DNA of 64,000 nt, from positions 32,102 through 96,101 of the IMG/VR virus record IMGVR_UViG_3300017912_001273; one strand, given 5' to 3'. The notes below the pieces were generated by a model, which had not been told where the DNA came from, ran no database searches, and saw only the letters and a list, made by a program, of their open reading frames with translations. The DNA is from a virus. Taxonomy: Duplodnaviria; Caudoviricetes. This document shows, one piece after another, positions 23,565 to 38,880 of the stretch; the stretch's first letter is position 1, and each line of letters begins with the position of its first letter. Both the position numbers and the translations under genes were made by a program.

Positions 23565-24482
23565 ATGGGATATAAAAAACCAACAAATACTACCAGAGCA
23601 TATCTGGAGAATGCACCCTTACCAAATCACGGTAAGAGTTATACAGTAATATCACATAAAACAGTGATAGACAATACGTTAGATCTATTAAAGAATAGTG
23701 GATTCAAAGTTCTAGAAGAAAAGTATAGAACTAATATGAATGCAAACGTTGCACAGGGAATATATTATATTCATCCTACCTCAACAGATCAACAGATTAA
23801 TGATGAGGAAGAGTTGGGTATGATGTTTACCTGGGTGAATTCATATGACAAGAGTAGAATGTTTAATTGTACAATTGGAGCATATGTTAAAGTATGTAGT
23901 AACGGTATGTGTGCAGGAGACATGTACCACTATAAAAGAAAACATACTGGAGCTGCAGATACTGATGTAAGAAATCATATATCTAGTCAGATCAAAAATG
24001 CTGAAAAGTATTATAAAAGGTTAATTAGTGATAAAGAAACAATGAAGCAGATTGATTTATCTACTAAACAAATGTCTGAGTTGACAGGAAGATTGTTTAT
24101 AGATGAAGATATGATTGACTCACAACAAGTAACCTGCATCAAGAAAGAAATAGATACGCCTTCTTTTAAGTACAAAGGAGGGACAGGCACTGCTTGGGCT
24201 TACTATAATCATGTTACGCATGCATTAAAGAAAGCACACCCAAGAGATTGGATGAATGACCAGAGAGACTTTCATGATTTTATGACTGCAGAAATATTAA
24301 ATCTTTCTACCATACAACCATATGAAGAATGGATTCTTAACTTTGATAATGATGAGTTAGGTATTACCAACGCTGATACAGAGCACGGTATTGATATTGA
24401 AGTAGAAACATTTGAACCAATTGAAGTTGATACTGAAATCAACTACAACAGACTATTACAGGACGTATATATGGGCAGATAG
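23565..24482 (+). CDS. DUF932-family protein
   Basis: NSYDKS...GAYVKVCSNG, RKHT and TAWAYYNHVT motifs. Confidence 0.7.
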   Translation: MGYKKPTNTTRAYLENAPLPNHGKSYTVISHKTVIDNTLDLLKNSGFKVLEEKYRTNMNANVAQGIYYIHPTSTDQQINDEEELGMMFTWVNSYDKSRMFNCTIGAYVKVCSNGMCAGDMYHYKRKHTGAADTDVRNHISSQIKNAEKYYKRLISDKETMKQIDLSTKQMSELTGRLFIDEDMIDSQQVTCIKKEIDTPSFKYKGGTGTAWAYYNHVTHALKKAHPRDWMNDQRDFHDFMTAEILNLSTIQPYEEWILNFDNDELGITNADTEHGIDIEVETFEPIEVDTEINYNRLLQDVYMGR

Positions 24483-24575
24483 TGGGCATATATCTTGTAA
24501 TATTGTTAGCCATAGTTTGTTTTTACATATGTAGTAAAAATAACCTTGATTATTAAACGGAGAGAAAAACCAACA

Positions 24576-24612
24576 TGGGTCCAAGTTTTTGCATTCTTGG
24601 GCCCGCTCTCTT
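24576..24612 (+). terminator. Hairpin, possible terminator
   Basis: tgggtccaag-tttttgcatt-cttgggcccg followed by ctctctt. Confidence 0.45.
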
Positions 24613-24643
24613 ATATATGTCCACCCTATAAAAGGAATAACAC

Positions 24644-24820
24644 ATGAAACCAAAACAGAAGTATGATGCTAGTTATACCAGAAAGAAAAATAGAAAGACT
24701 ATTATCATTGATGGTAAAGAATATAAATATGATGATGCCTCTTCGTTTAAACAAACGTATCACTGGCAAAGATTTAATATGCAAACTACTGCTAAAAGAA
24801 AAAATAAAAACAAAAGCTAA
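24644..24820 (+). CDS. Hypothetical basic micro-protein (58 aa, not in track)
   Basis: MKPKQKYDASYTRKKNRKTIIIDGKEYKY...*; TAATG coupling to ORF 24820. Confidence 0.55.
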   Translation: MKPKQKYDASYTRKKNRKTIIIDGKEYKYDDASSFKQTYHWQRFNMQTTAKRKNKNKS

Positions 24821-25104: not shown

Positions 25105-25234
25105 TACATATAAAAGCCATATAACTGGCAATACTGCAATAAAGAAAGAAGATGGCTGGTATGACTCTATAACTAATAAACGTCTTATGAGCTATGAAGT
25201 ATATAAATTTGTATCGTTATCTAAGAAACAATGA
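25094..25234 (+). CDS. Hypothetical micro-protein (46 aa, not in track)
   Basis: MKSNTYKSHITGNTAIKKEDGWYDSITNKRLMSYEVYKFVSLSKKQ*; ATGA coupling to 25231. Confidence 0.5.
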   Translation: MKSNTYKSHITGNTAIKKEDGWYDSITNKRLMSYEVYKFVSLSKKQ

Positions 25235-25569
25235 AAAAGTGTAACGTATGCAACCGCAATAGACCAGAATGGTTCTATAAAACTGATAAAAAGAAGACAT
25301 GCCGTAGATGTGAATACAGATGGTGGCGTGATCTTCTAAGGATGATGGTCCGTGATAGAAGACTAACACCTGTAGAAAGACTAGCTAGCCGTGCTGGATA
25401 TATGGGCACAGGTTTTCTTATTGCTGGTCAATGGTCTGTAGAACCTATATTTTTTATGATAGGATTTGTCCTTGTACTAATACAAGTAACCACTAGAAGA
25501 CAATGGAATCTTGTTGCATTACAGTTAAATGGACTAATAGCTTGGACAATTCATTTCTTTACAAGCTAG
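25231..25569 (+). CDS. Zn-finger + membrane protein
   Basis: CNVC...CRRC followed by 2-3 hydrophobic helices. Confidence 0.65.
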   Translation: MKKCNVCNRNRPEWFYKTDKKKTCRRCEYRWWRDLLRMMVRDRRLTPVERLASRAGYMGTGFLIAGQWSVEPIFFMIGFVLVLIQVTTRRQWNLVALQLNGLIAWTIHFFTS

Positions 25570-25623
25570 GAAATCTTATTATTTTACCGTATCTTTATAT
25601 TATAGTAACATTAATTTAACATT

Positions 25624-25827
25624 ATGAAGTATCTAGTAATAATGGTGATGTTATTAACTTTTGTGTCTTGTGGTCCTACACAAGAGTTAATATCAAAGAC
25701 ACCTAAAACAACAAGGGAAGCTGTCATTTATGAAGACAAAGTAGTAATTATAACAAGAACTACTATTTCCAAGGACCGCTATAAAGAGCTTATAGCTTCA
25801 AGAAATAAAAATCCAGAAGGTAATTAA
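25624..25827 (+). CDS. Small lipoprotein
   Basis: Lipobox FVSC after a hydrophobic stretch; TATCTTTA element at 25590. Confidence 0.65.
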   Translation: MKYLVIMVMLLTFVSCGPTQELISKTPKTTREAVIYEDKVVIITRTTISKDRYKELIASRNKNPEGN

Positions 25828-30150: not shown

Positions 30151-30621
30151 TTATTTGTTATTACTAATTGTTTTAAATTTTTCAGCTCCTCTGGAACCAA
30201 AATAAGCCACATAGACAGTAATTAAAAGTGACTTGAGTAAATCTACCCAACCACTATCTATACTAAAGTCTATATTAAAGCCATCTAACAAGATAAATAT
30301 AACTAATGAAACAGTTAAAAATATCAAAGTTAGAGGTCTTGTATTTTTAGAAAGATATGAGTCAGACTTCATATCAGCCTGCCATCTCTTACTTACTTCT
30401 TGCTGCTCAACCATATCTTGTTCTAACAGCTTTAATGCGTATTCTTTGTCTTCAGGTGATAGAACTTTAGGATCTTCCTTTTCTATCAAACCTTTTACAA
30501 CACCAAGTACTCCTGCATCAGGTAATACATCACCAACAACACCTAATATGCTAGGTACTTTTTCAGTGAGAAATTGTCCCACCTTGGTTTCTTTAAATTT
30601 CTTTTTAGGTTTTGTACTCAT
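30151..30621 (-). CDS. Holin (3TM / GTA-holin-like)
   Basis: RWQADM...SKNTRPL, two C-terminal TM helices, AYFGSRGAEK. Confidence 0.75.
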   Translation of the reverse strand: MSTKPKKKFKETKVGQFLTEKVPSILGVVGDVLPDAGVLGVVKGLIEKEDPKVLSPEDKEYALKLLEQDMVEQQEVSKRWQADMKSDSYLSKNTRPLTLIFLTVSLVIFILLDGFNIDFSIDSGWVDLLKSLLITVYVAYFGSRGAEKFKTISNNK

Positions 30622-31625
30622 TACGGATATATTTTTATTGTTAATGGTGTTCTATATAATAAATCATCTCCCAAAGTTGATCCTCCACTAGGTGAATGCA
30701 GCATTGAACTAATTTTAAATCCATCATTACCTGAATCATAAACATGTGCATATCCATATCTATTTTTAAACACCATGCCTATATTTATGACTACTTTGTC
30801 TGCGTCAGCAACAGCTGAACTATATGTTAAATCATATAATCCTGCACTTGAACGGGCAAAAGTAAATGTTTTACCTGTTGAATTGTGCAATATATTAGCT
30901 GTTGGAGCTGAACTACCAGTCTGCTCTATCAACATCTCAGCATATGTATATGGTAATGATATGTCAACATGATTAGTATTCTGTGCAATATCTAAAGTAT
31001 TATCTGTTGATCTTAGAGTTCTAAATTCTAAATCAACTCCTGTCTTCTGTTTGAAAAAACCTGCATCACCACCAAGATTACTTGCAGTATTAGCTTCACC
31101 ACTACCACCGCCTGTTGCACTTATAGTAATCTCATTACCACTTTGGCTAATATTAACATTAGAACCTCCTACTAGAGATCTAAAGTTTAATGTTTCACCA
31201 ACTTTATCTTTCCAAATACCAACTCCACCACCTACGTTGGCAGCAGTGTTTGGCTCTCCTGATGTAGTTATCTCTATATAATTATCATCAGCAGATGTAG
31301 CAAGGGTGAGGTTGCTGCTCAGAGACTTCAGAGATCTGTAAAATACAGTACATGTCTCAAGAACTTCATCAGATACTGTTTTCTGATATACTTGACCAGT
31401 GCCAGCAGCTGGAGTAGCTGGAGAATTTGCGTGAGCACAGTGTTCTGCAGCAACCTTAAGATCCCTTACTTTTATGATCTTAATACTTTTATAAGGTATT
31501 GGTGAGGCAACACCCGTCATTTCTGGTTCCTCATTAGTACCTAGGACAAGAACATCATTTAAGTCTGCCTTCTTGACAAACTGGCTTCTCCTTATTAAAC
31601 TTAATACGTCAGTTAAAATATTCAT
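30621..31625 (-). CDS. Fibre/structural protein with internal repeats
   Basis: Two GExNTAxNxGG...LxFRxL repeats; N-terminus resembles that of ORF 25831-29274. Confidence 0.7.
   Translation of the reverse strand: MNILTDVLSLIRRSQFVKKADLNDVLVLGTNEEPEMTGVASPIPYKSIKIIKVRDLKVAAEHCAHANSPATPAAGTGQVYQKTVSDEVLETCTVFYRSLKSLSSNLTLATSADDNYIEITTSGEPNTAANVGGGVGIWKDKVGETLNFRSLVGGSNVNISQSGNEITISATGGGSGEANTASNLGGDAGFFKQKTGVDLEFRTLRSTDNTLDIAQNTNHVDISLPYTYAEMLIEQTGSSAPTANILHNSTGKTFTFARSSAGLYDLTYSSAVADADKVVINIGMVFKNRYGYAHVYDSGNDGFKISSMLHSPSGGSTLGDDLLYRTPLTIKIYP
31014..31259 (-). repeat. Two 29-aa intragenic repeats
   Basis: GEPNTAANVGGGVGIWKDKVGETLNFRSL (31173-31259) and GEANTASNLGGDAGFFKQKTGVDLEFRTL (31014-31100). 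Confidence 0.85.
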
Positions 31626-32878: not shown

Positions 32879-33859
32879 ATGAACAAAAACATTTTCAAAC
32901 CCAGAGTAAATATTCTGCCTTATGAATACCCACAATTATTAGAATATAAAGATGCAATAAGACACTCTTATTGGATAGATACAGAATTTAATTTTACAGA
33001 AGACGTACAAGATTTTAAGATTCATATTACTCCTGGGGAGAAAGATGTTATTAAAAAAACAATGTTAGCAATTGCACAGATTGAAGTTAATGTAAAAACT
33101 TTCTGGGGTGATCTATATAAACGCATGCCTATCACAGAAATTGGTGATGTAGGTTTTACTTTTGCTGAGTCAGAAGTAAGACATAAAGATGCATATGCAA
33201 GACTACTAAGAATTCTTGGACTAGAAAAAGAATTTGAGAATGTAGTTGAAGTACCAGCTATTGCAAATAGAATTAAATATTTAAAGAAGTACTTAGACGG
33301 TACAAGATCTAGAGATAATAAAATGTACACTAAGTCTGTATTATTGTTCTCACTCTTCATAGAACATGTTAGTTTGTTTAGTCAGTTCTTAATTATGATG
33401 AGCTTTAACAAAGAAAAAAATGTACTTAAGGGTATCTCTAATGTGGTTGAGGCTACTAGTAAAGAAGAAGAAATACATGGTAACTTTGGTGCTGAGCTTA
33501 TTAATATAATTAAAAAAGAGAACCCGGAGTGGTTTGATGAAGATTTTGAAGAGTTAGTATATTCTGCATGCAGAAAAGCTTACAGTGCTGAGTGTGGTAT
33601 TCTTGATTGGATATTTGAGAGTGGTGAATTACCATTTTTACCAAAGTATACTATTTATAATTTTATTAAGAATAGATTTAATAATTCACTTGTAAAGATT
33701 GGAATGTCTCCTATCTTTACGGTTAATAGTGAAGCATTAAAAGTAACTGAGTGGTTTGATGTTGAGATTACATCTACCAAGGAAGGAGATTTCTTTTATA
33801 AGAAGTCTGTAGACTATAATAAGAAGAGTAAAAGCATCACAGTTGATGACTTATTTTAA
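32879..33859 (+). CDS. nrdB: Ribonucleotide reductase class I, beta subunit
   Basis: Di-iron motifs ESEVRHKDAY, IEHVSLFSQF, EEEIH; C-terminal DFF...DY. Confidence 0.93.
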   Translation: MNKNIFKPRVNILPYEYPQLLEYKDAIRHSYWIDTEFNFTEDVQDFKIHITPGEKDVIKKTMLAIAQIEVNVKTFWGDLYKRMPITEIGDVGFTFAESEVRHKDAYARLLRILGLEKEFENVVEVPAIANRIKYLKKYLDGTRSRDNKMYTKSVLLFSLFIEHVSLFSQFLIMMSFNKEKNVLKGISNVVEATSKEEEIHGNFGAELINIIKKENPEWFDEDFEELVYSACRKAYSAECGILDWIFESGELPFLPKYTIYNFIKNRFNNSLVKIGMSPIFTVNSEALKVTEWFDVEITSTKEGDFFYKKSVDYNKKSKSITVDDLF

Positions 33860-33870
33860 AACCAAAATAA

Positions 33871-35496
33871 ATGGAATATAGTAAATACTATTGGCTAAAT
33901 GAAGATAGCCGTAAATTTTTATCAAGAGGATATATATCAGAGGAACCAGAACAAAGAATAAAAGACATAGCAAATACTGCAGAAAAATATTTGCATATGC
34001 CAGGCTTTGCACAAAAGTTTGAAGAGTACATGTCAAAGGGTTTCTATAGTTTATCTACACCAGTATGGATAAACTTTGGTAAACAAAAAGGTTTACCTAT
34101 TAGTTGTTATGGATCAAATATAGATGATAATCTAGATAGCATATTAAATGCTGGGCGTGAGATAGGTATGATGTCTAAGTATGGTGGTGGCACTAGTTGC
34201 TACCTAGGTAATATAAGACCTAGAGGATCTGTAATATCAACAGGAGGACATGCAGATGGACCTGTTCACTATGCTAGAATATATGATACAGTTGTTGATG
34301 TATGTAAACAATCTGAAGCAAGGCGTGGAGCGTGTGCTGCATACTTACCTTTAGAGCATCCAGATATCATGGAGTTCTTAGATATTGGTACTGAGGGAAA
34401 TCCAATACAAAACTTACAGTATGGTGTTACTGTAAGTAATAACTGGATGGAGCAGATGAGAGCTGGAGATAAAGATAAACGTAAGATATGGGCCAAAGTT
34501 ATTCAAAGAAGAAGTGAGTTTGGATTTCCATATATAATGTTTAAGGATAACTCCAATAATAACTCTCCTTATAAAGAGATAGGAATGGAGATCACTGCAT
34601 CTAATTTATGTTCTGAGATTCAGTTACCTACAGATACTTATAACTCTTTTGTTTGTTGTCTTGGTTCTATTAACCTATTACACTGGGATGAAATCATAAA
34701 GACTGATGCAATAGAAACTTATGTATTCTTCCTTAATGCTGTTATGGATGAATTCATTAAGAAGGCTGAAGTAAAAGCAGGCCTTAGAAGAGCTTATAAC
34801 TTTGCAAAGGATCATAGAGCAATTGGTTTAGGGGTGTTAGGATATCATAGTTTGTTTCAATCAAAGCTAATTGAGTTTGAATCTCTTGCAGCTAAGCAAT
34901 TAAACAATCATATATTTAAACACTTAAAAGAAACATCAGATGCTGCATCTAGATGGTTATATGAACATAGAGGTTACAGATCCTTACGTGAAGGTTTTGC
35001 AAACACTACACTAATGGCTATAGCACCCACTAAATCTAGTTCATTTATACATGGTGCTGTGTCAATGGGTATTGAGCCAATCAAGTCTAATTACTTTATC
35101 AAGGATCTTGCTAAGTCTAAAACTATATATAAGAATCCATTTTTAGAATGTGAGTTAGAAAAGTATGGTTTAAATAATAAGAAGACCTGGGATAGTATAT
35201 TAAAGAAAGATGGATCTGTACAGCATCTAGACTTTCCAACTAAAGCAGTCTTTAAGTCATTTGTAGAGATAACACCAAAAGAGTTAGTTCTTCAAGCGGC
35301 ACAAAGACAGAAGTATATTGATCAGTCACAGTCACTAAACTTAATGATACACCCATCAGTACCAGCAAAAGATATAAATGCTCTTTATATATATGCTTAT
35401 GAAGAAGGTGTAAAAACTTTGTACTATCAATTTAGTCAAAGCTCAGCTCAAGCATTCTCTAGAAATATATTGGATTGTGCAAGTTGTGAAGGTTAA
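33871..35496 (+). CDS. nrdA: Ribonucleotide reductase class I, alpha subunit (no ATP cone)
   Basis: PISC, SNLCSEI, CCLGSIN, AIAPT, GVKTLYY, C-terminal CASCEG. Confidence 0.95.
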   Translation: MEYSKYYWLNEDSRKFLSRGYISEEPEQRIKDIANTAEKYLHMPGFAQKFEEYMSKGFYSLSTPVWINFGKQKGLPISCYGSNIDDNLDSILNAGREIGMMSKYGGGTSCYLGNIRPRGSVISTGGHADGPVHYARIYDTVVDVCKQSEARRGACAAYLPLEHPDIMEFLDIGTEGNPIQNLQYGVTVSNNWMEQMRAGDKDKRKIWAKVIQRRSEFGFPYIMFKDNSNNNSPYKEIGMEITASNLCSEIQLPTDTYNSFVCCLGSINLLHWDEIIKTDAIETYVFFLNAVMDEFIKKAEVKAGLRRAYNFAKDHRAIGLGVLGYHSLFQSKLIEFESLAAKQLNNHIFKHLKETSDAASRWLYEHRGYRSLREGFANTTLMAIAPTKSSSFIHGAVSMGIEPIKSNYFIKDLAKSKTIYKNPFLECELEKYGLNNKKTWDSILKKDGSVQHLDFPTKAVFKSFVEITPKELVLQAAQRQKYIDQSQSLNLMIHPSVPAKDINALYIYAYEEGVKTLYYQFSQSSAQAFSRNILDCASCEG

Positions 35497-35900
35497 AGAC
35501 TTGCTCTATTAGGAGGGACAAGCGTTTGTTTCTTACCCCCGTGGTATACATATGCATGTCCTTCCTCTATTAAAGTTTTACACACGTCTATCTCTATACC
35601 CTGATCATTTAGTATAAAGATCTCTGCTAGCACTCTGCCATATTTGCCTGTGCCATAAGATCTAATTCGGAAGAACATTTTCTTTTCTGACACATCTGAT
35701 AGTAGTTCTTTAGTTCGTGCCTTAGCTGCTAAGCCTTTCTTCTTCTCTTCTAAGTCCTTCGTCCTACATTCCCATGTATCTAATCCGTGAAATCTAATTC
35801 TTTTTTTAACCCAGGTATCAAAACCTAAATCAATCATAGCGTCAACCGTATCACCGTCAACAACTCTGACTAACTTAGCTTTGTATATATATTTTTCCAT
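35493..35900 (-). CDS. SNase-like (thermonuclease) protein
   Basis: RVVDGDT, RIRFHGLDTWE, GKYGRVLA, EGHA. Confidence 0.88.
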   Translation of the reverse strand: MEKYIYKAKLVRVVDGDTVDAMIDLGFDTWVKKRIRFHGLDTWECRTKDLEEKKKGLAAKARTKELLSDVSEKKMFFRIRSYGTGKYGRVLAEIFILNDQGIEIDVCKTLIEEGHAYVYHGGKKQTLVPPNRASL

Positions 35901-35905
35901 GATTA

Positions 35906-36304
35906 TTAAAACTGGCTAGCTTTAGATAGTTCTTCTATATCTGATTGTAGCTCTTCTAATGTTACTGGGCACTCTAGATCCAGGCCAGCTTTGTAACTAA
36001 ATTCTTTGAATCCTTCTTTGAATACAATAATAGTAGGAGCCATTCTTACTTTATATTTTTTCTTAGCTCCAGGAGATTTAGCAATATCACACCTATAATA
36101 TTTAACTCCTTTAAGTTTATTCCAATCTGCAAATGCATTGTCTTTATTAAACTCTGCATAAAACTCTACAACTATAATATCTTGGTCTTCTCCAAATGCA
36201 CTTTTACCTGAAATTGCACTATCAAATCCATCATCTGTTACCCAATCTTGGGCTGATGCGGTTGTACCTACTAGTAATAATAGTATTAGTAGTACTTTTT
36301 TCAT
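35906..36304 (-). CDS. Secreted thioredoxin-fold protein lacking CxxC
   Basis: Signal peptide ending ASA-Q; VVEFYAEFN replaces FxAxWCxxC; KYKVRMAPTIIVFKEG cis-Pro motif. Confidence 0.7.
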   Translation of the reverse strand: MKKVLLILLLLVGTTASAQDWVTDDGFDSAISGKSAFGEDQDIIVVEFYAEFNKDNAFADWNKLKGVKYYRCDIAKSPGAKKKYKVRMAPTIIVFKEGFKEFSYKAGLDLECPVTLEELQSDIEELSKASQF

Positions 36305-36309
36305 GTCTT

Positions 36310-36600
36310 TTATTTAGTACTCAATTCATAAAGACGTTGCTCTACCTTCTCTAGTGTGCCTTTTATTTCCTCAACGTCTTCTTGAGTATTCATAATTGTT
36401 TCCCTAATTAGTTCATCTTTAAGATCATATTCCACTCTATCAATAGGTGGTTCTGGTTTTTCCATTGCTAATGCTATGTCTGCTTTTAAAGTAAACCACA
36501 TGGTAGCTAGGGTTATTGTAAAACCTATAATCATACCTATTGTTTTTAGATCTAAAGTAACTTTAGTTTGTTCTCCAATCTGAGGTGCGTTCTGTGCCAT
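36310..36600 (-). CDS. Single-TM membrane protein with coiled coil
   Basis: Hydrophobic helix IGMIIGFTITLATMWF, then heptad-rich C-terminus. Confidence 0.7.
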   Translation of the reverse strand: MAQNAPQIGEQTKVTLDLKTIGMIIGFTITLATMWFTLKADIALAMEKPEPPIDRVEYDLKDELIRETIMNTQEDVEEIKGTLEKVEQRLYELSTK

Positions 36601-36606
36601 TTCTAA

Positions 36607-36963
36607 TTATTTAGTTTTTTTAAATTCAAATTTTTCTCCAGTTATAGAAAGCTTATCTATTACTTCAGTTTGAAGATCTCTTAGTAGTTTTTCTAGTTTA
36701 TCTTTTTCTATAACCATTCCAGAAACTTTATCCTCTAATGCTTCATTCTTTGCTTTCAATGCTTCTACCTCTTCTGGGTTCTTACCTATAAAAGTGTATA
36801 TGACTACTGATAGTGAGCCAACAAGCATACCTACAATAACTTTAAATATATCATTATTAGTATCTGGTATTTCAAAAAAAGCTAAAAATAACAATAAGCC
36901 CATTACAAGTATAAATACTGTAGCAGCTCCTATATATCCTCTTAATTCTTTATCTTTTAACAT
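36607..36963 (-). CDS. Two-TM membrane protein with coiled coil
   Basis: Two hydrophobic helices followed by a long coiled coil. Confidence 0.7.
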   Translation of the reverse strand: MLKDKELRGYIGAATVFILVMGLLLFLAFFEIPDTNNDIFKVIVGMLVGSLSVVIYTFIGKNPEEVEALKAKNEALEDKVSGMVIEKDKLEKLLRDLQTEVIDKLSITGEKFEFKKTK

Positions 36964-36969
36964 AACTTA

Positions 36970-37530
36970 TTAATTTAATAAATATCCATATGGAGTTGAT
37001 TCAACATCTTGTCCAATTGGAAAATTTTCTAATCTTATTGATACAGTCATTGTTCTTTGTACATAAGGGTTATAAAATTCACCTTCAGCAGTTAAACAAA
37101 TTAATCCTGAATGTGGCCCTCCTAGTTGACCTGCATCTTGTACTATTACTTCATTCCAAACTACATACTCCTGATCCCCTGGTATTTCAACACCAGCATA
37201 CTTATTGTCTGGATTTTCCCAGGTATAAGTACCTACATCTAATAGTTCTCCATCATCATTTGCATCTGAATCCAAACAGTATAATGCAAAGTGTTGTCTA
37301 TCTAACCTAATTTCACCATCATCAATTTGCAGATACAAAATAAATATCTTCTTAAGAAATCCATCTACATATTTACTTCCTCCAAATGAATTTACTTTAG
37401 CATATCTTTCATATGGATCAAATGTTTCACCATCTAAAGTTATTTCAAACACTTGTTCTAATACAACCTCTTCTTCTTTTTCACAACCTAATAAAAAGAA
37501 AACAGATATAAGTAATAATAATTTTTTCAT
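36970..37530 (-). CDS. Lipoprotein
   Basis: Lipobox LLGC followed by acidic EKEEE. Confidence 0.75.
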   Translation of the reverse strand: MKKLLLLISVFFLLGCEKEEEVVLEQVFEITLDGETFDPYERYAKVNSFGGSKYVDGFLKKIFILYLQIDDGEIRLDRQHFALYCLDSDANDDGELLDVGTYTWENPDNKYAGVEIPGDQEYVVWNEVIVQDAGQLGGPHSGLICLTAEGEFYNPYVQRTMTVSIRLENFPIGQDVESTPYGYLLN

Positions 37531-37531
37531 T

Positions 37532-38773
37532 TTATTTAAATGTATAATTTATTCCTACACTACTCTGGTATAGTTCACTATCCCAAAATTTACCATATTC
37601 ACCTTCTATAAATAATCCAAAGTTTTTGCTGAGTCTCCAGCCAAAATTTATACCTAGATTATAATCATCCCATTGTTCTGGTTCTGAATCTTGTTTCAGA
37701 CCGCCTTTACCCCAATTATTTCTATTTAAATAGCTAAAGTCTTCATCACCCATAACATATTTATGATATGGTAATATATAATTAGCATATGCATGTAACC
37801 AGAAATTACTTTTATAATGATAGAAATCAAATCCCACAATAGGTGCAATCTCACCAAATGCATCAATGAGATCCCACTGTTCATTATTATATCTATTAAT
37901 TAAATCTCTAAACACAGTGTTTCTAAACTGTAGATCAGAGTATGCTACTATTTGGTCTTGTGGATTATACCAATACCAATCAAAGTTTTGTACCTCTTCT
38001 CCTGTATTAGGATTAATACTTGTTGACTGATAAGATACATCATAGAATCCATATTCATATCCTAAAGAATACCAAGGGTTAGCTGGGTACTCTATCACCT
38101 CTCCATCTGGAGTTGTAAATGTTTCAGTTTCATTTAACCAGATCTCAATTGGGTTATATCCATAAGCACGTTCATGAGTACGGAAGATTGTACCCGCAGA
38201 TATGCTAAACTTTTTACCTATTGGTAGTCTTAGTCTTACTTCTGCTGATTGATAGTTTAAGTTTATACTACCAACTTCTCTTGACTCAGCTTTAATTATA
38301 TGATGTTTACCTGTGTGTTTAATAAAGTATCTGTGGTTTTCAAAGTCCTCTCCACGTAATCTTTCTTTTTCAAAATGAAATTGATATTCTAATCCAGCTA
38401 GTGCTGAGCTAGGTGCAGTAAATGCTAATTGTTGTTCTGTTCCATCATACCAGTTTCTAGGCTTTCTTTCATAGTCAAACCTAGCTAGTTTTCTGATTCC
38501 AAATCCAACTCTATAATCAAAGTCATAGTATTCCGTTACATTAATTACTCTTGGGATGCCGTAAAGATCACCATCTGCTGGTCTCTCTACAAAAAAGTCT
38601 TGTCTGCTTGATTCATATGAACTACGTGCATCTCCTGCACCATAGATAGTTCCATACTGTAAGAAATCTTTATATAGTGCTTTGAAAAATTTACCCTTAT
38701 CTTCCTGTCCATAAGATAAGTTTGGTATGCACAATAAAAGTATAAGTACCAACAGACTTAAATAGTTTTTCAT
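37532..38773 (-). CDS. Putative outer-membrane beta-barrel protein
   Basis: Signal peptide; aromatic-rich alternating strands; C-terminal SVGINYTFK beta-signal-like. Confidence 0.7.
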   Translation of the reverse strand: MKNYLSLLVLILLLCIPNLSYGQEDKGKFFKALYKDFLQYGTIYGAGDARSSYESSRQDFFVERPADGDLYGIPRVINVTEYYDFDYRVGFGIRKLARFDYERKPRNWYDGTEQQLAFTAPSSALAGLEYQFHFEKERLRGEDFENHRYFIKHTGKHHIIKAESREVGSINLNYQSAEVRLRLPIGKKFSISAGTIFRTHERAYGYNPIEIWLNETETFTTPDGEVIEYPANPWYSLGYEYGFYDVSYQSTSINPNTGEEVQNFDWYWYNPQDQIVAYSDLQFRNTVFRDLINRYNNEQWDLIDAFGEIAPIVGFDFYHYKSNFWLHAYANYILPYHKYVMGDEDFSYLNRNNWGKGGLKQDSEPEQWDDYNLGINFGWRLSKNFGLFIEGEYGKFWDSELYQSSVGINYTFK

Positions 38774-38798
38774 ATTTAAAGTTTAATAATTAATTTAA

Positions 38799-38840
38799 AT
38801 TCTTGTTGGTCTATATAATAATATAACCATTCTTGTTGGT
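38799..38840. promoter_or_regulatory. 12-bp direct repeat flanking a promoter-like AT motif
   Basis: attcttgttggt at 38799-38810 and 38829-38840; the - strand between them reads GGTTATATTATTATATAG. Confidence 0.6.
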
Positions 38841-38880
38841 GTGTACAAATCTTTTTAATGAAAATTTGTCCTGTTTAAAC

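What the first reader, a model, noticed from the sequence alone, without database searches (positions are those of the whole stretch)
35493..38840. Self-contained phage envelope operon: OM beta-barrel, lipoprotein, two coiled-coil membrane proteins, Cys-less periplasmic thioredoxin and nuclease
Seen: six tightly spaced - strand genes (gaps of 1-6 nt) behind their own promoter-like motif flanked by 12-bp direct repeats. Five carry export or membrane signals covering outer membrane, periplasm and inner membrane; the last is an SNase without a signal peptide. The holin lies elsewhere and no endolysin is adjacent. Inference: a trans-envelope apparatus built in the infected cell, such as a superinfection-exclusion/DNA-trap system, an uptake pore or a non-canonical outer-membrane disruption device. 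I do not recognise it as a described system; it is the best multi-gene candidate for novelty here.
Basis: partly seen in the sequence, partly recalled or inferred. Interest (0 to 1): 0.8.

Follow-up and report, generated by a model that had tools for sequence, protein, structure and literature searches.

The report
Phage outer-membrane barrel lysis-linked module
Three envelope proteins (an outer-membrane barrel, an inner-membrane tether and a thioredoxin without its active site) travel together in many uncultured marine phages, usually beside the cell-bursting genes, and may be an undescribed way of breaking the host's outer membrane.

Summary
The six minus-strand ORFs, their 1-6 nt gaps and the 12-bp repeat are real. 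The 413-aa protein models as an outer-membrane beta-barrel of about 14 strands (pLDDT 83).

The six genes are not one conserved unit. The conserved core is three genes:
- the barrel;
- a 96-aa single-pass coiled-coil protein (TM96);
- a signal-peptide thioredoxin fold lacking CxxC.

This core is complete in 73 of 76 related viral loci. It recurs in a second clade whose barrel is about 33% identical. The lipoprotein, the 2-TM protein (TM118) and the SNase are lineage-specific additions.

The window's own genome has no lysis gene next to the module. In relatives, 47 of 76 loci have an endolysin within 3 kb on the same strand, from five different families. In the second clade the figure is 36 of 82.

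Best reading (confidence 0.4): a lysis-linked envelope module acting like a spanin, with a barrel in place of the outer-membrane lipoprotein.

Against this reading:
- one complete close relative lacks the module;
- a few loci also carry spanin-like pairs;
- nothing has been tested experimentally.

The host is inferred to be Bacteroidota. No family, structure or paper was found that describes the trio.

The parts
38774..38880 (-). Intergenic region upstream of the barrel gene. It holds two exact 12-bp direct repeats (38829-38840 and 38799-38810) and a conserved motif TATATTAT..TATAGACCAAC. It is a possible module-specific regulatory site; promoter activity is not shown.
   Evidence: Searches show the repeats. 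One search shows the motif kept in 7 of 7 relatives, with the distal repeat only in the window and L001. One search shows no excess of sigma-70-like sites. Searches show the motif is not recurrent on this strand of the window.
37532..38773 (-). Core gene 1. A 413-aa protein with a signal peptide (cleavage before Q, by inspection). It is predicted to be an outer-membrane beta-barrel of about 14 strands. It has an N-terminal helix, a conserved but low-confidence periplasmic turn (residues about 98-117) and long conserved loops.
   Evidence: AF2 gives pLDDT 72.0, and 83.4 with pTM 0.78. Foldseek against the PDB gives 74 and 79 hits at E<=1e-3; every row shown is an outer-membrane barrel. VIA-align gives EstA Z 13.0, KdgM 12.1 and NanC 11.8. 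Pfam and PHROGs give no hit. There are 2373 homologues, none named.
36970..37530 (-). Accessory gene. A 186-aa lipoprotein with a lipobox (LLGC) followed by E-K-E-E-E, which matches the Bacteroidetes lipoprotein export signal K-(D/E)2. It is therefore predicted to be surface-exposed. Its function is unknown.
   Evidence: One search gives the sequence. One search shows 8 of 8 family members (window included) with C-x-K-(D/E)(D/E). The signal is taken from the PMC5080379 abstract. It is present in 7 of 80 loci, always beside the trio. There are 607 unnamed homologues. Pfam and PHROGs give no family.
36607..36963 (-). Inserted gene. A 118-aa protein with two hydrophobic segments and a charged coiled C-terminus. 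Its topology resembles a holin, but it matches no holin family. It is a recent, mobile insertion.
   Evidence: It is absent from the closest relative L001. One contig from an RNA library joins 36617 to 36970 and skips it. Homologues of 87-97% identity sit at other positions in L005-7, L055 and L058. Only sub-threshold family hits were found.
36310..36600 (-). Core gene 2 (TM96). It has a short N-terminus, one conserved hydrophobic segment (about residues 21-38), a P-x-P hinge and a conserved helical or coiled C-terminal domain of about 58 aa. Its topology resembles an i-spanin or an antiholin.
   Evidence: Alignment A2 covers 35 sequences and has 10 invariant columns. The gene is in 78 of 80 loci by tblastn and in 62 of 82 second-clade loci by HMM. 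No family or PDB relative was found.
35906..36304 (-). Core gene 3. A 132-aa protein with a signal peptide and a thioredoxin fold. The WCGPC site is replaced by the conserved F-N-x-x-N-x-F. The cis-Pro motif (R-M-A-P-T) is kept. There is no conserved Cys, and the C-terminus ends in a conserved aromatic residue.
   Evidence: PF00085 scores 26.9 bits. A PDB profile search finds 153 thioredoxin-type hits. Alignment A3 has Q19, F52, N53, N56, F58 and P90 invariant in 31 of 31 sequences.
35493..35900 (-). A 135-aa staphylococcal-nuclease-like endonuclease without an export signal. It is a variable neighbour. It more likely belongs with the adjacent nucleotide-metabolism genes (nrdA/nrdB) than with the envelope trio.
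   Evidence: PF00565 and phrog_452 match. It is in 9 of 80 loci by tblastn. In the second clade an SNase cluster is in 20 of 82 loci and often lies next to the barrel. nrdA and nrdB lie at 33871-35496 and 32879-33859.
30151..30621 (-). Context. A holin-family protein (phrog_3427) lies among tail-fibre-like genes. The same family sits directly beside the trio in other phages.
   Evidence: One search gives E 6.4e-18. Searches cover L059-type loci, where the order is trio, Amidase_2 endolysin, phrog_3427 holin.

Best explanation
The functional unit is a conserved three-protein envelope module of a large group of uncultured marine phages, whose hosts are inferred to be Bacteroidota:
- an outer-membrane beta-barrel;
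- an inner-membrane-anchored coiled-coil protein (TM96);
- a periplasmic, redox-dead thioredoxin-fold protein.

The module belongs to the phage's lysis gene set. Most likely it acts at the last step of lysis, breaching the outer membrane, as a spanin analogue.

Proposed mechanism (all steps inferred):
1. TM96 plays the part of the i-spanin.
2. The barrel, inserted beforehand by the host BAM machinery, replaces the usual outer-membrane lipoprotein.
3. The thioredoxin-fold protein is an adaptor or chaperone between them. It may dock on the barrel's conserved periplasmic turn.

What is shown: the folds and signals, the co-occurrence of the three genes, and the lysis-gene neighbourhood.

What is inferred: localisation, physical contact between the three proteins, timing of expression, and the membrane-disrupting activity.

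The surface-type lipoprotein, the 2-TM protein and the SNase are lineage-specific additions.
For: 1. The trio is conserved.
- It is complete in 73 of 76 loci with a barrel ORF. The three misses are two contig ends and one ORF hidden by my overlap filter.
- In a second clade (barrel about 33% identical) both partners lie within 6 kb in 62 of 82 loci, in several gene orders.

2. The trio is linked to lysis genes.
- A recognised endolysin lies within 3 kb on the same strand in 47 of 76 loci: Peptidase_M15_3 in 27, PG_binding_1+Amidase_2 in 11, Amidase_2 in 4, phrog_33083-like in 3, DUF5675 in 2. DUF5675 is only a putative endolysin.
- In the second clade the figure is 36 of 82.
- In the 11 PG_binding_1+Amidase_2 loci the endolysin starts 24-27 nt after the Trx-like gene. 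A Phage_holin_4_1 holin follows in all 11.
- Five different endolysin families at the same position suggest the linkage survived repeated gene replacement.

3. The topology fits.
- The barrel is predicted with a signal peptide.
- TM96 has one N-terminal hydrophobic segment and a helical C-terminal domain.
- A TM96 paralogue, or TM96 itself, directly follows an unstructured Y/N/P-rich lipoprotein in L005, L006, L052 and L008. That looks like an o-spanin/i-spanin pair.

4. No canonical partner is hidden. An embedded lipobox ORF in the TM96-Trx stretch was found in 0 of 71 loci and not in the window.

5. There is an apparent replacement.
- The complete relative G009 lacks barrel and TM96. It carries instead an overlapping pair: a 109-aa protein with a TM segment and coiled coil, and a 158-aa signal-peptide protein.
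- That pair is absent from the window's genome and from the 6 barrel-positive portal relatives.

6. The idea has been raised in print. Kongari et al. 2018 wrote that 'an OMP could act as an o-spanin' for the roughly 13% of phages with no identifiable spanin (PMC6139136, section 15 read in full).
Against: - In the window's own genome, and in its 10-locus lineage (L001-8, L077, L078), no endolysin or holin is adjacent. The endolysin is about 43 kb away.
- The module is dispensable in at least one complete close relative (G009: portal 83% identical, direct terminal repeats, 100% complete by CheckV).
- Some loci hold the trio and a spanin-like candidate as well. L025 has a 64-aa lipobox protein with a C-terminal TM segment. 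L039 and L076 have an overlapping c109/c110 pair, distantly similar to the G009 pair (E 5e-5 and 0.058).
- TM96's periplasmic part is only about 58 residues, which is short for bridging a periplasm.
- The strong conservation of TM96's membrane segment hints at a partner inside the inner membrane instead.
- No barrel-type spanin has been shown experimentally.
- Linkage counts come from related contigs and are not independent events.
- Expression timing is unknown.
- No sequence or profile similarity to any known lysis protein was found.
Confidence: 0.4

Rival explanations
1. Superinfection exclusion or surface remodelling. The barrel changes or masks the infected cell's surface so that further phages cannot adsorb or inject, or so that progeny are not lost on debris. 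In some phages the surface-exposed lipoprotein takes part. TM96 and the Trx-like protein serve in assembly or signalling.
For: - All parts are exported or membrane proteins.
- The lipoprotein carries a surface-export signal in 8 of 8 family members.
- In the second clade a large secreted protein with a T9SS sorting domain sits next to the barrel in 67 of 82 loci. Its PF18962 match was seen in 2 of 3 members tested.
- The module is absent from a complete relative, as accessory genes often are.
- In the window's lineage it lies away from the lysis genes.
Against: - The trio is conserved across two deep clades and thousands of proteins, unlike typically sporadic exclusion genes.
- The inferred external loops of the barrel are among its most conserved parts (invariant columns). 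That does not fit a surface protein under diversifying selection.
- The repeated tight linkage to endolysin and holin genes is left unexplained.
Confidence: 0.2
2. Lysis-timing regulator. TM96 acts like an antiholin or holin accessory in the inner membrane. The periplasmic Trx-like protein and the barrel relay an envelope signal that delays or triggers the holin.
For: - TM96 is about the size and topology of small signal-anchored periplasmic lysis regulators (this comparison is recalled, not tested).
- Its membrane segment and the flanking residues are highly conserved, suggesting a specific partner within the membrane.
- Small 2-TM proteins (clusters c8, c7, c17; no family match) flank the trio in many loci. 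Some holin-like protein lies within 1.5 kb in 41 of 76 loci, of which only c12 and c60 have holin-family support.
Against: - No similarity to any holin or antiholin family was found.
- A 391-residue barrel is an elaborate part for a timing device.
- No holin is adjacent in the window's genome.
Confidence: 0.12
3. Transport channel. The barrel is a substrate channel for uptake (for example nucleosides for the neighbouring nucleotide-metabolism genes) or for export of a phage protein. The Trx-like protein would be a periplasmic binding partner.
For: - The best structural matches are small channels and translocator barrels: KdgM, NanC, Tsx, autotransporters and FapF.
- The module lies next to nrdA/nrdB in both orientations, and often next to an SNase.
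- Charged residues line one face of several strands (by inspection).
Against: - The structural matches are generic, with low TM-scores (0.2-0.5).
- The SNase has no export signal.
- The nrd linkage looks like shared synteny at a module boundary.
- TM96 has no counterpart in such channels.
- PorP/SprF kinship found no support: hhalign probability 7.9%, with only the signal peptides aligned.
- This reading does not explain the endolysin and holin linkage.
Confidence: 0.1
4. Outer-membrane enzyme. The barrel modifies or degrades outer-leaflet lipid and so weakens the outer membrane, in the manner of barrel lipases or deacylases. This would be a different mechanism for the same lysis step.
For: - Many invariant His, Ser, Asn, Asp and Glu residues lie in loops and strands.
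- Conservation is unusually high for an outer-membrane protein (55-94% identity in clade 1).
- LpxR is among the structural matches (Z 10.2).
Against: - No sequence or profile match to any barrel enzyme family was found.
- LpxR does not stand out from other 12-stranded barrels in the same list.
Confidence: 0.08

Closest known systems
Two-component spanins (lambda Rz/Rz1, T4 PseT.3/PseT.2)
   Same: - An inner-membrane protein with an N-terminal anchor and a periplasmic helical domain is paired with an outer-membrane component.
- The genes sit in or beside holin and endolysin genes in most relatives.
- TM96 (93-107 aa) is close in size to the 117-aa T4 i-spanin (PMC6139136, passages).
   Different: - The conserved outer-membrane partner is a roughly 390-residue beta-barrel, not a small lipoprotein.
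- There is a third, periplasmic thioredoxin-fold subunit.
- No embedded or overlapping lipobox gene exists (0 of 71 loci).
- The Trx-like protein has no conserved Cys, and no Cys column in TM96 or the barrel is invariant or nearly so. Most spanins use intermolecular disulfides.
- There is no sequence similarity to spanin families.
Hypothetical 'OMP as o-spanin' (Kongari et al. 2018, section on spanin-less phages)
   Same: This is exactly the architecture those authors suggested might exist in phages with no identifiable spanin.
   Different: It was a one-sentence speculation without an example. Here a concrete, widespread candidate family is described, but no function is shown.
phiKT gp28 'disruptin' (cationic peptide for outer-membrane disruption)
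   Same: It is a non-spanin solution for the outer-membrane step of lysis in a spanin-less phage (bioRxiv 10.1101/515445; search listing and start of abstract only).
   Different: It is a single small amphipathic peptide. It is not a barrel, not membrane-anchored and not a multi-protein set.
Small outer-membrane barrels: autotransporter translocators, KdgM/NanC, Tsx, FapF
   Same: The predicted fold class is the same, and an N-terminal helix precedes the barrel.
   Different: - No sequence relationship was found (nothing below E 0.28).
- TM-scores are low.
- About 14 long strands are predicted, against 12 in the best matches.
- It is phage-encoded, with long conserved loops.
Classical thioredoxins
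   Same: The fold and the cis-proline motif are shared, and Pfam and PDB profile matches are found.
   Different: - It is exported.
- CxxC is replaced by the conserved F-N-x-x-N-x-F.
- No Cys is conserved, so thiol-disulfide chemistry is excluded.
Phage-encoded outer-membrane proteins such as lambda Lom and Bor, or porin-like morons (recalled, not examined here)
   Same: They are phage genes whose products go to the host outer membrane.
   Different: Those are sporadic accessory genes of temperate phages, and none has a fixed inner-membrane or periplasmic partner. BFVD holds porin-like viral barrels, but only one close structural relative of this family (A0A516LKJ4, E 9e-26).

Membership tests
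Two-component spanin | i-spanin: a type II inner-membrane protein with an N-terminal transmembrane segment and a periplasmic coiled-coil domain | tested here: met
   TM96 has one conserved hydrophobic segment (about residues 21-38) followed by a charged helical domain (alignment A2). This rests on inspection only. No topology predictor was run and the orientation is inferred from charge.
Two-component spanin | o-spanin: an outer-membrane lipoprotein (lipobox) encoded embedded in, overlapping or next to the i-spanin gene | tested here: not met
   A lipobox ORF in any frame of the TM96-Trx stretch was found in 0 of 71 loci and not in the window. A lipoprotein gene directly precedes TM96 or its paralogue only in L005, L006, L008 and L052. 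The window's lipoprotein is separated from TM96 by TM118 and carries a surface-export signal.
Two-component spanin | Location in a lysis cassette with holin and endolysin | tested here: inconclusive
   Met in relatives: an endolysin lies within 3 kb in 47 of 76 loci and in 36 of 82. Not met in the window's own genome.
Two-component spanin | Sequence membership of a known spanin family | tested here: not met
   No Pfam or PHROGs lysis family reaches significance for any of the six proteins.
Unimolecular spanin | One protein with an N-terminal lipobox and a C-terminal transmembrane segment | tested here: not met
   None of the six window proteins has both (inspection). A 64-aa protein of that design exists in relative L025.
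Outer-membrane beta-barrel proteins | Signal peptide plus a closed antiparallel barrel of an even number of strands | tested here: met
   The AF2 model (pLDDT 83.4, pTM 0.78) has 14 long strands. The PDB gives 79 hits at E<=1e-3, and every row shown is an outer-membrane barrel. VIA-align gives Z 13.0-11.4 to 12-stranded barrels. This is a prediction only.
Outer-membrane beta-barrel proteins | C-terminal aromatic beta-signal | tested here: inconclusive
   The consensus C-terminus is ..G-x-N-Y-T-F-x. The aromatic residue is second from last rather than last.
T9SS PorP/SprF barrels | Profile similarity to PF11751 | tested here: not met
   No Pfam hit at E<=1. hhalign of A4 against 5 PorP/SprF proteins from MAG genomes gave probability 7.9%, with only the signal peptides aligned. 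No PF11751 was found in the window's genome.
Thioredoxin family | Thioredoxin fold with the cis-proline loop | tested here: met
   PF00085 scores 26.9 bits against a cut-off of 23.5. There are 153 PDB thioredoxin-type hits. P90 is invariant.
Thioredoxin family | CxxC redox site | tested here: not met
   The site reads F-N-K-D-N-A-F. F52, N53, N56 and F58 are invariant in 31 of 31 sequences, and no Cys column is conserved.
Staphylococcal nuclease (SNase) | Pfam PF00565 above its cut-off | tested here: met
   26.6 bits against a cut-off of 21, and phrog_452 at 8.3e-36. Catalytic residues were not examined.
Holins (for the 118-aa protein) | Membership of a holin family | tested here: not met
   Only sub-threshold, unrelated hits were found. 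The two hydrophobic segments plus a charged C-terminus were seen by inspection.
Bacteroidetes surface-exposed lipoproteins | Lipobox Cys followed by the export signal K-(D/E)2 | tested here: met
   C-E-K-E-E in the window. All 8 of 8 family members show C-x-K-(D/E)(D/E). The signal definition is from the PMC5080379 abstract. Localisation was not tested.

The most novel reading that the evidence does not exclude
This would be a third architecture for breaching the outer membrane at phage lysis. A BAM-inserted beta-barrel is tethered through a catalytically dead thioredoxin to an inner-membrane coiled-coil protein. It would be used by a very abundant group of uncultured marine Bacteroidota phages, and would be interchangeable with other spanin-like gene pairs.
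Probability: 0.3. Interest if true: 0.85.

Novelty: new variant of a known kind. Interest (0 to 1): 0.65.

Why it matters
- About 13-15% of phages of Gram-negative hosts have no recognisable spanin (PMC6139136 section 15; bioRxiv 10.1101/515445 abstract).
- In a study of cultivated marine flavobacterial phages, a spanin is mentioned in the passages I read for only three of them: Ingeline, Nekkels and Harreka (PMC8776804).
- How Bacteroidota phages open the outer membrane is therefore largely unknown. This trio is a concrete candidate that can be tested.
- The trio is also abundant. There are 2373 barrel homologues, on contigs up to about 175 kb among the 120 listed, from many marine data sets.
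- If the lysis reading is wrong, the module is still an undescribed, strongly conserved set of phage proteins targeted to three envelope compartments. It includes a thioredoxin fold put to a non-redox use.

Tried and rejected
**Jobs that gave no usable result**
- Complex prediction on barrel 23-413, Trx-like 19-132 and TM96 39-96 (partner TM96) returned 'no answer' with score 0.00, and no controls were run. This is no evidence either way.
- A second VIA-align wide search on the better model was not available.
- The search for related loci with the alignment of distant barrels failed for lack of conserved stretches. The single proteins P0020 and P0011 were used instead.

**Searches that found nothing**
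- GenBank phages (INPHARED): no tblastn match for the barrel, TM96, P0058 or P0020. The only blastn match was a 104-nt stretch of the SNase gene in two Staphylococcus phages.
- Genome contigs: only 7 loci, all in MAGs. They are labelled Maricaulis (1), Woesearchaeota (3) and Flavobacteriaceae or Bacteroidetes (3). These are probably binned phage contigs.
- PDB sequence profiles for the barrel and TM96: nothing below E 0.28.
- Protein atlas: only unnamed viral clusters. DUF2730 at 0.82 for TM96 is a weak lead only.
- PorP/SprF kinship found no support. No T9SS sorting domain or PorP/SprF gene was found in the window's genome, but that tool's control genomes did not reach the cut-off either, so the absence is weak.
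- PorV-like, FadL-like or enzyme barrels did not stand out in the fold lists. This does not exclude them.

**Checks that did not support a feature**
- Promoter scan: not above chance.

**RNA evidence**
- Contigs from four metatranscriptomic libraries of two studies carry pieces of TM96, the lipoprotein and the barrel at 90-99% likeness.
- Contigs cannot show transcription, its level or its timing. DNA carry-over is possible.

**Literature**
- Searches for a barrel-type spanin or for this trio found nothing relevant.
- Supplements were closed and not consulted. The spanin tables of PMC6139136 and SI file 7 of PMC8776804 might list further Bacteroidota-phage lysis genes.

Full report
**1. The observation**

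One search confirms six minus-strand ORFs between 35493 and 38773, separated by 5, 5, 6, 6 and 1 nt. They lie downstream of four very large ORFs (864, 1084, 4491 and 1894 aa). They run convergent with nrdB and nrdA.

The 12-bp repeat ACCAACAAGAAT is present twice, 30 nt apart, in the 107-nt gap upstream of the first gene. A sigma-70-type scan finds no more promoter-like sites than in shuffles (15 against 19.7 +/- 4.9). A motif TATATTAT..TATARACCAAC about 40 nt before the start codon is kept in 7 of 7 aligned relatives, while the distal repeat copy is only in the window and its closest relative. An own regulatory site is therefore plausible but not shown.

The window is part of a 96,101-base IMG/VR virus record, linear and estimated 84% complete. 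It carries replication genes, a portal, a major head protein and an endolysin.

**2. What the six proteins are**

- **413-aa protein.** It has no Pfam, PHROGs or PDB sequence relative.
  - With an alignment of 35 homologues AlphaFold gave pLDDT 72.0. With 59 sequences and the mature chain it gave pLDDT 83.4 and pTM 0.78.
  - The model shows an N-terminal helix, about 14 long strands, a conserved but low-confidence segment (mature residues 76-95) and several long loops with helices.
  - Foldseek finds 74 and 79 PDB chains at E<=1e-3, and every row shown is an outer-membrane barrel. TM-scores are only 0.2-0.5.
  - VIA-align ranks 12-stranded barrels first: EstA Z 13.0 (rmsd 4.1, 196 aligned), KdgM 12.1, NanC 11.8, NalP 11.7, Tsx 10.9 and LpxR 10.2.
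  - The fold class is well supported. No particular barrel family is.
- **132-aa protein.** It is a thioredoxin fold behind a signal peptide (PF00085; 153 PDB hits). The WCGPC site is replaced by an invariant F-N-x-x-N-x-F, the cis-proline is retained, and no Cys is conserved.
- **96-aa protein (TM96).** It has one conserved hydrophobic segment and a conserved helical C-terminal domain.
- **186-aa protein.** It has a lipobox followed by K-E-E. This matches the Bacteroidetes lipoprotein export signal K-(D/E)2 (PMC5080379 abstract) in 8 of 8 family members. It is therefore predicted to be surface-exposed, not facing the periplasm.
- **118-aa protein (TM118).** It has two hydrophobic segments and matches no family.
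- **135-aa protein.** It is an SNase-type nuclease without an export signal.

**3. The conserved unit is three genes, not six**

The barrel has 88 confirmed relatives in IMG/VR, of which 80 loci were kept. It has 2373 homologues in the large protein collection, none named. Against 1.84 billion representatives it has 342 matches at E<=1e-3. The atlas clusters nearest to it are 100% viral.

tblastn of the window's proteins against the 80 loci finds:

| Protein | Loci with a match (of 80) | Note |
|---|---|---|
| TM96 | 78 | |
| Trx-like protein | 71 | |
| Lipoprotein | 7 | always beside the trio |
| SNase | 9 | |
| TM118 | 5 | always elsewhere in the locus |
| 1894-aa protein | 10 | |

Clustering all neighbouring ORFs shows barrel, TM96 and the Trx-like gene together in 73 of 76 loci that have a barrel ORF. 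The three misses are two contig ends and one ORF masked by my overlap filter. More divergent Trx-like genes of 107-111 aa account for the loci that tblastn missed. Gene order is barrel-TM96-Trx in most loci and TM96-Trx-barrel in a few.

TM118 is a recent insertion. It is absent from the 94-100% identical relative L001, and a contig from an RNA library joins across it.

**4. The neighbourhood in relatives is a lysis cassette**

Family checks on the neighbouring clusters gave:
- cluster c5: Peptidase_M15_3 and phrog_894 endolysin;
- cluster c14: PG_binding_1 plus Amidase_2;
- cluster c12: Phage_holin_4_1;
- cluster c59: Amidase_2 and phrog_822 (6e-52);
- cluster c60: phrog_3427 holin;
- cluster c68: phrog_33083 endolysin (1e-17);
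- cluster c93: DUF5675, weakly Tlde1-like, so only a putative endolysin.

One of these endolysin types lies within 3 kb on the same strand in 47 of 76 loci. That is 47 of the 63 loci that either have 3 kb of flank on both sides or already show one. By type the counts are 27, 11, 4, 3 and 2.

In the 11 PG_binding_1+Amidase_2 loci the endolysin starts 24-27 nt after the Trx-like gene, and the holin follows in all 11. In the four Amidase_2 loci the order is TM96, Trx-like, barrel, endolysin, phrog_3427 holin.

Small 2-TM proteins without family matches (c8, c7, c17) often flank the trio.

As a rough yardstick, one endolysin in a genome of about 100 kb would fall within this span by chance in well under a tenth of genomes. 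The loci are related, so the counts are not independent. The presence of five different endolysin families at the same position is the stronger argument.

The exception is the window's own lineage (L001-8, L077, L078). There the trio sits between the 1894-aa gene and nrdA, and the endolysin is far away. In the window's genome it lies at 23772-24692, about 43 kb from the module.

**5. A second clade, and the host**

A distant barrel (P0020, about 33% identical to the window's) has 110 relatives in IMG/VR. I analysed 82 second-clade loci: 80 from the P0020 search and 2 from the P0011 search.
- HMMs built from my alignments find TM96 in 62 loci and the Trx-like protein in 69.
- Both are present in 62 loci, neither in 15 (11 of these have a short flank), and only the Trx-like protein in 5.
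- An endolysin lies within 3 kb in 36 of 82, and a holin of an annotated family in 42 of 82.

In this clade a large secreted protein sits directly upstream of the barrel in 67 of 82 loci. It carries a T9SS C-terminal sorting domain (PF18962, E 2e-9 and 2e-11) in 2 of the 3 members tested.

Four observations point to a Bacteroidota host:
- this T9SS sorting domain;
- the invariant Gln after the signal peptide in 31 of 31 Trx-like proteins, which fits the Bacteroidetes Q-rule (PMC5837995 and PMC10653852, search listing and start of abstracts);
- the lipoprotein export signal;
- G+C of 30-37%.

The host has not been observed.

**6. Is the module indispensable?**

No. The portal has at least 599 relatives. 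Among 12 portal-related records the barrel profile matches 6, which are 6 of the 8 records of 63 kb or more.

One of the two complete records, G009 (118,325 bases, terminal repeats, portal 83% identical), has neither barrel nor TM96. There the 1894-aa gene runs straight into nrdA.

Near nrdB, G009 carries instead:
- a 104-aa protein with a TM segment and a coiled coil;
- an overlapping gene pair: a 109-aa protein with a TM segment and a coiled coil, and a 158-aa signal-peptide protein ending in an aromatic residue.

These are absent from the window's genome and from the 6 barrel-positive records. This looks like a functional swap, but it is essentially one event.

Loci L039 and L076 carry both the trio and a distantly similar pair. 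L025 carries a unimolecular-spanin-like gene beside the trio.

**7. How it most likely works**

Shown by calls:
- the predicted folds;
- the co-occurrence of the three genes;
- the linkage to lysis genes.

By inspection only: the export signals.

Inferred: the barrel is inserted into the outer membrane during infection. TM96 is anchored N-in in the inner membrane with its helical domain in the periplasm. The Trx-like protein is periplasmic. Together they link the two membranes and destroy or open the outer membrane once the endolysin has removed the wall.

Points in favour:
- TM96 resembles a short i-spanin.
- TM96 or its paralogue directly follows unstructured Y/N/P-rich lipoproteins in four loci. 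This fits a family of i-spanin-like anchors that pair with different outer-membrane partners.
- The barrel's conserved but disordered periplasmic turn is a natural docking site.

Points against:
- TM96's periplasmic part is short.
- Its membrane segment is conserved.
- The module can be lost.
- It co-occurs with other spanin-like candidates.
- There is no experiment.

I put this reading at 0.4. The rivals are surface remodelling or exclusion (0.2), a lysis-timing device (0.12), a channel (0.1) and a barrel enzyme (0.08).

**8. Comparison with what is known**

The module works like a spanin in outline but fails the membership test:
- it has no lipoprotein partner gene in the expected place (0 of 71 loci);
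- it has no similarity to spanin families;
- it has a third subunit.

It is not a PorP/SprF barrel. The Trx-like protein is a thioredoxin by fold but not by chemistry.

Kongari et al. 2018 wrote that an OMP might act as an o-spanin (section 15 read in full). My four literature searches found no example and no description of this trio. The searched library does not hold most subscription journals, and supplements were closed.

**9. Verdict**

The six-gene 'operon' reduces to a conserved three-gene core plus lineage-specific additions.

The comparative evidence moves the interpretation from a stand-alone apparatus towards a lysis-linked module, probably for the outer-membrane step. It is undescribed, abundant in marine viromes and testable, but its function remains inferred.

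Noticed in passing
window 36607-36963: The 118-aa 2-TM gene is a presence/absence variant. L001 lacks it, and one contig from an RNA library joins 36617 to 36970. Copies of 87-97% identity sit at unrelated positions in phages whose other genes are only 40-85% identical (L005-7, L055, L058). It behaves like a small mobile membrane-protein gene.
   Followed up: partly
window 38881-63955: Four consecutive very large ORFs (1894, 4491, 1084 and 864 aa) have no PHROGs family. Their only Pfam match is a sub-threshold PD-(D/E)XK hit in the 1894-aa protein (E 9e-4). The 4491-aa ORF was scanned in Pfam only, not in PHROGs. Upstream of the barrel, other lineages have equally large but unrelated proteins (2700-3200 aa).
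   Followed up: no
L104 1796-5959; L168 8062-12456 (second clade): A large secreted protein with a T9SS C-terminal sorting domain (PF18962) is encoded directly upstream of the barrel in 67 of 82 second-clade loci. It would be a phage-encoded T9SS cargo whose role is unknown.
   Followed up: partly
L262 2601-2915 and 3232-3961 (complete relative G009): The trio-less relative carries a 104-aa protein with a TM segment and coiled coil. It also carries an overlapping pair: a 109-aa protein with a TM segment and coiled coil, and a 158-aa signal-peptide protein ending ..YKLF. This is a possible non-lipoprotein spanin-like pair, distantly similar to c109/c110 of L039 and L076.
   Followed up: partly
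L005 12440-12871 and 12875-13210; L052 12237-12668; L008 11227-11955: Y/N/P-rich, apparently unstructured lipoproteins sit immediately before TM96 or a TM96 paralogue. The paralogue shares the N-terminal and membrane part of TM96 but has a different periplasmic domain (phrog_20984, function unknown).
   Followed up: partly
L013 11949-13621; L014 13261-14959: Two further conserved envelope genes lie downstream of the lysis genes in many relatives. One is a 365-417-aa protein with several TM segments and a long coiled coil (c10). The other is a 137-142-aa signal-peptide protein that looks like a small outer-membrane barrel (c11). Neither has a family match.
   Followed up: no
window 25231-25827: A 112-aa protein with a Cys-rich N-terminus and C-terminal TM segments is followed by a 67-aa lipobox protein, at the end of the replication block. 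Relatives of the 112-aa protein (cluster c16) lie next to nrd genes in other phages.
   Followed up: no
window 30151-31625: The phrog_3427 holin-family gene sits among tail-fibre-like genes, next to a 334-aa protein with repeated motifs and a 1147-aa Big_9 protein. It is not next to the endolysin. The lysis genes of this phage are therefore scattered over at least three sites.
   Followed up: partly
window 35493-35496: The stop of nrdA (plus strand) and the stop of the SNase gene (minus strand) overlap by 4 nt, so the two convergent genes share their ends.
   Followed up: no
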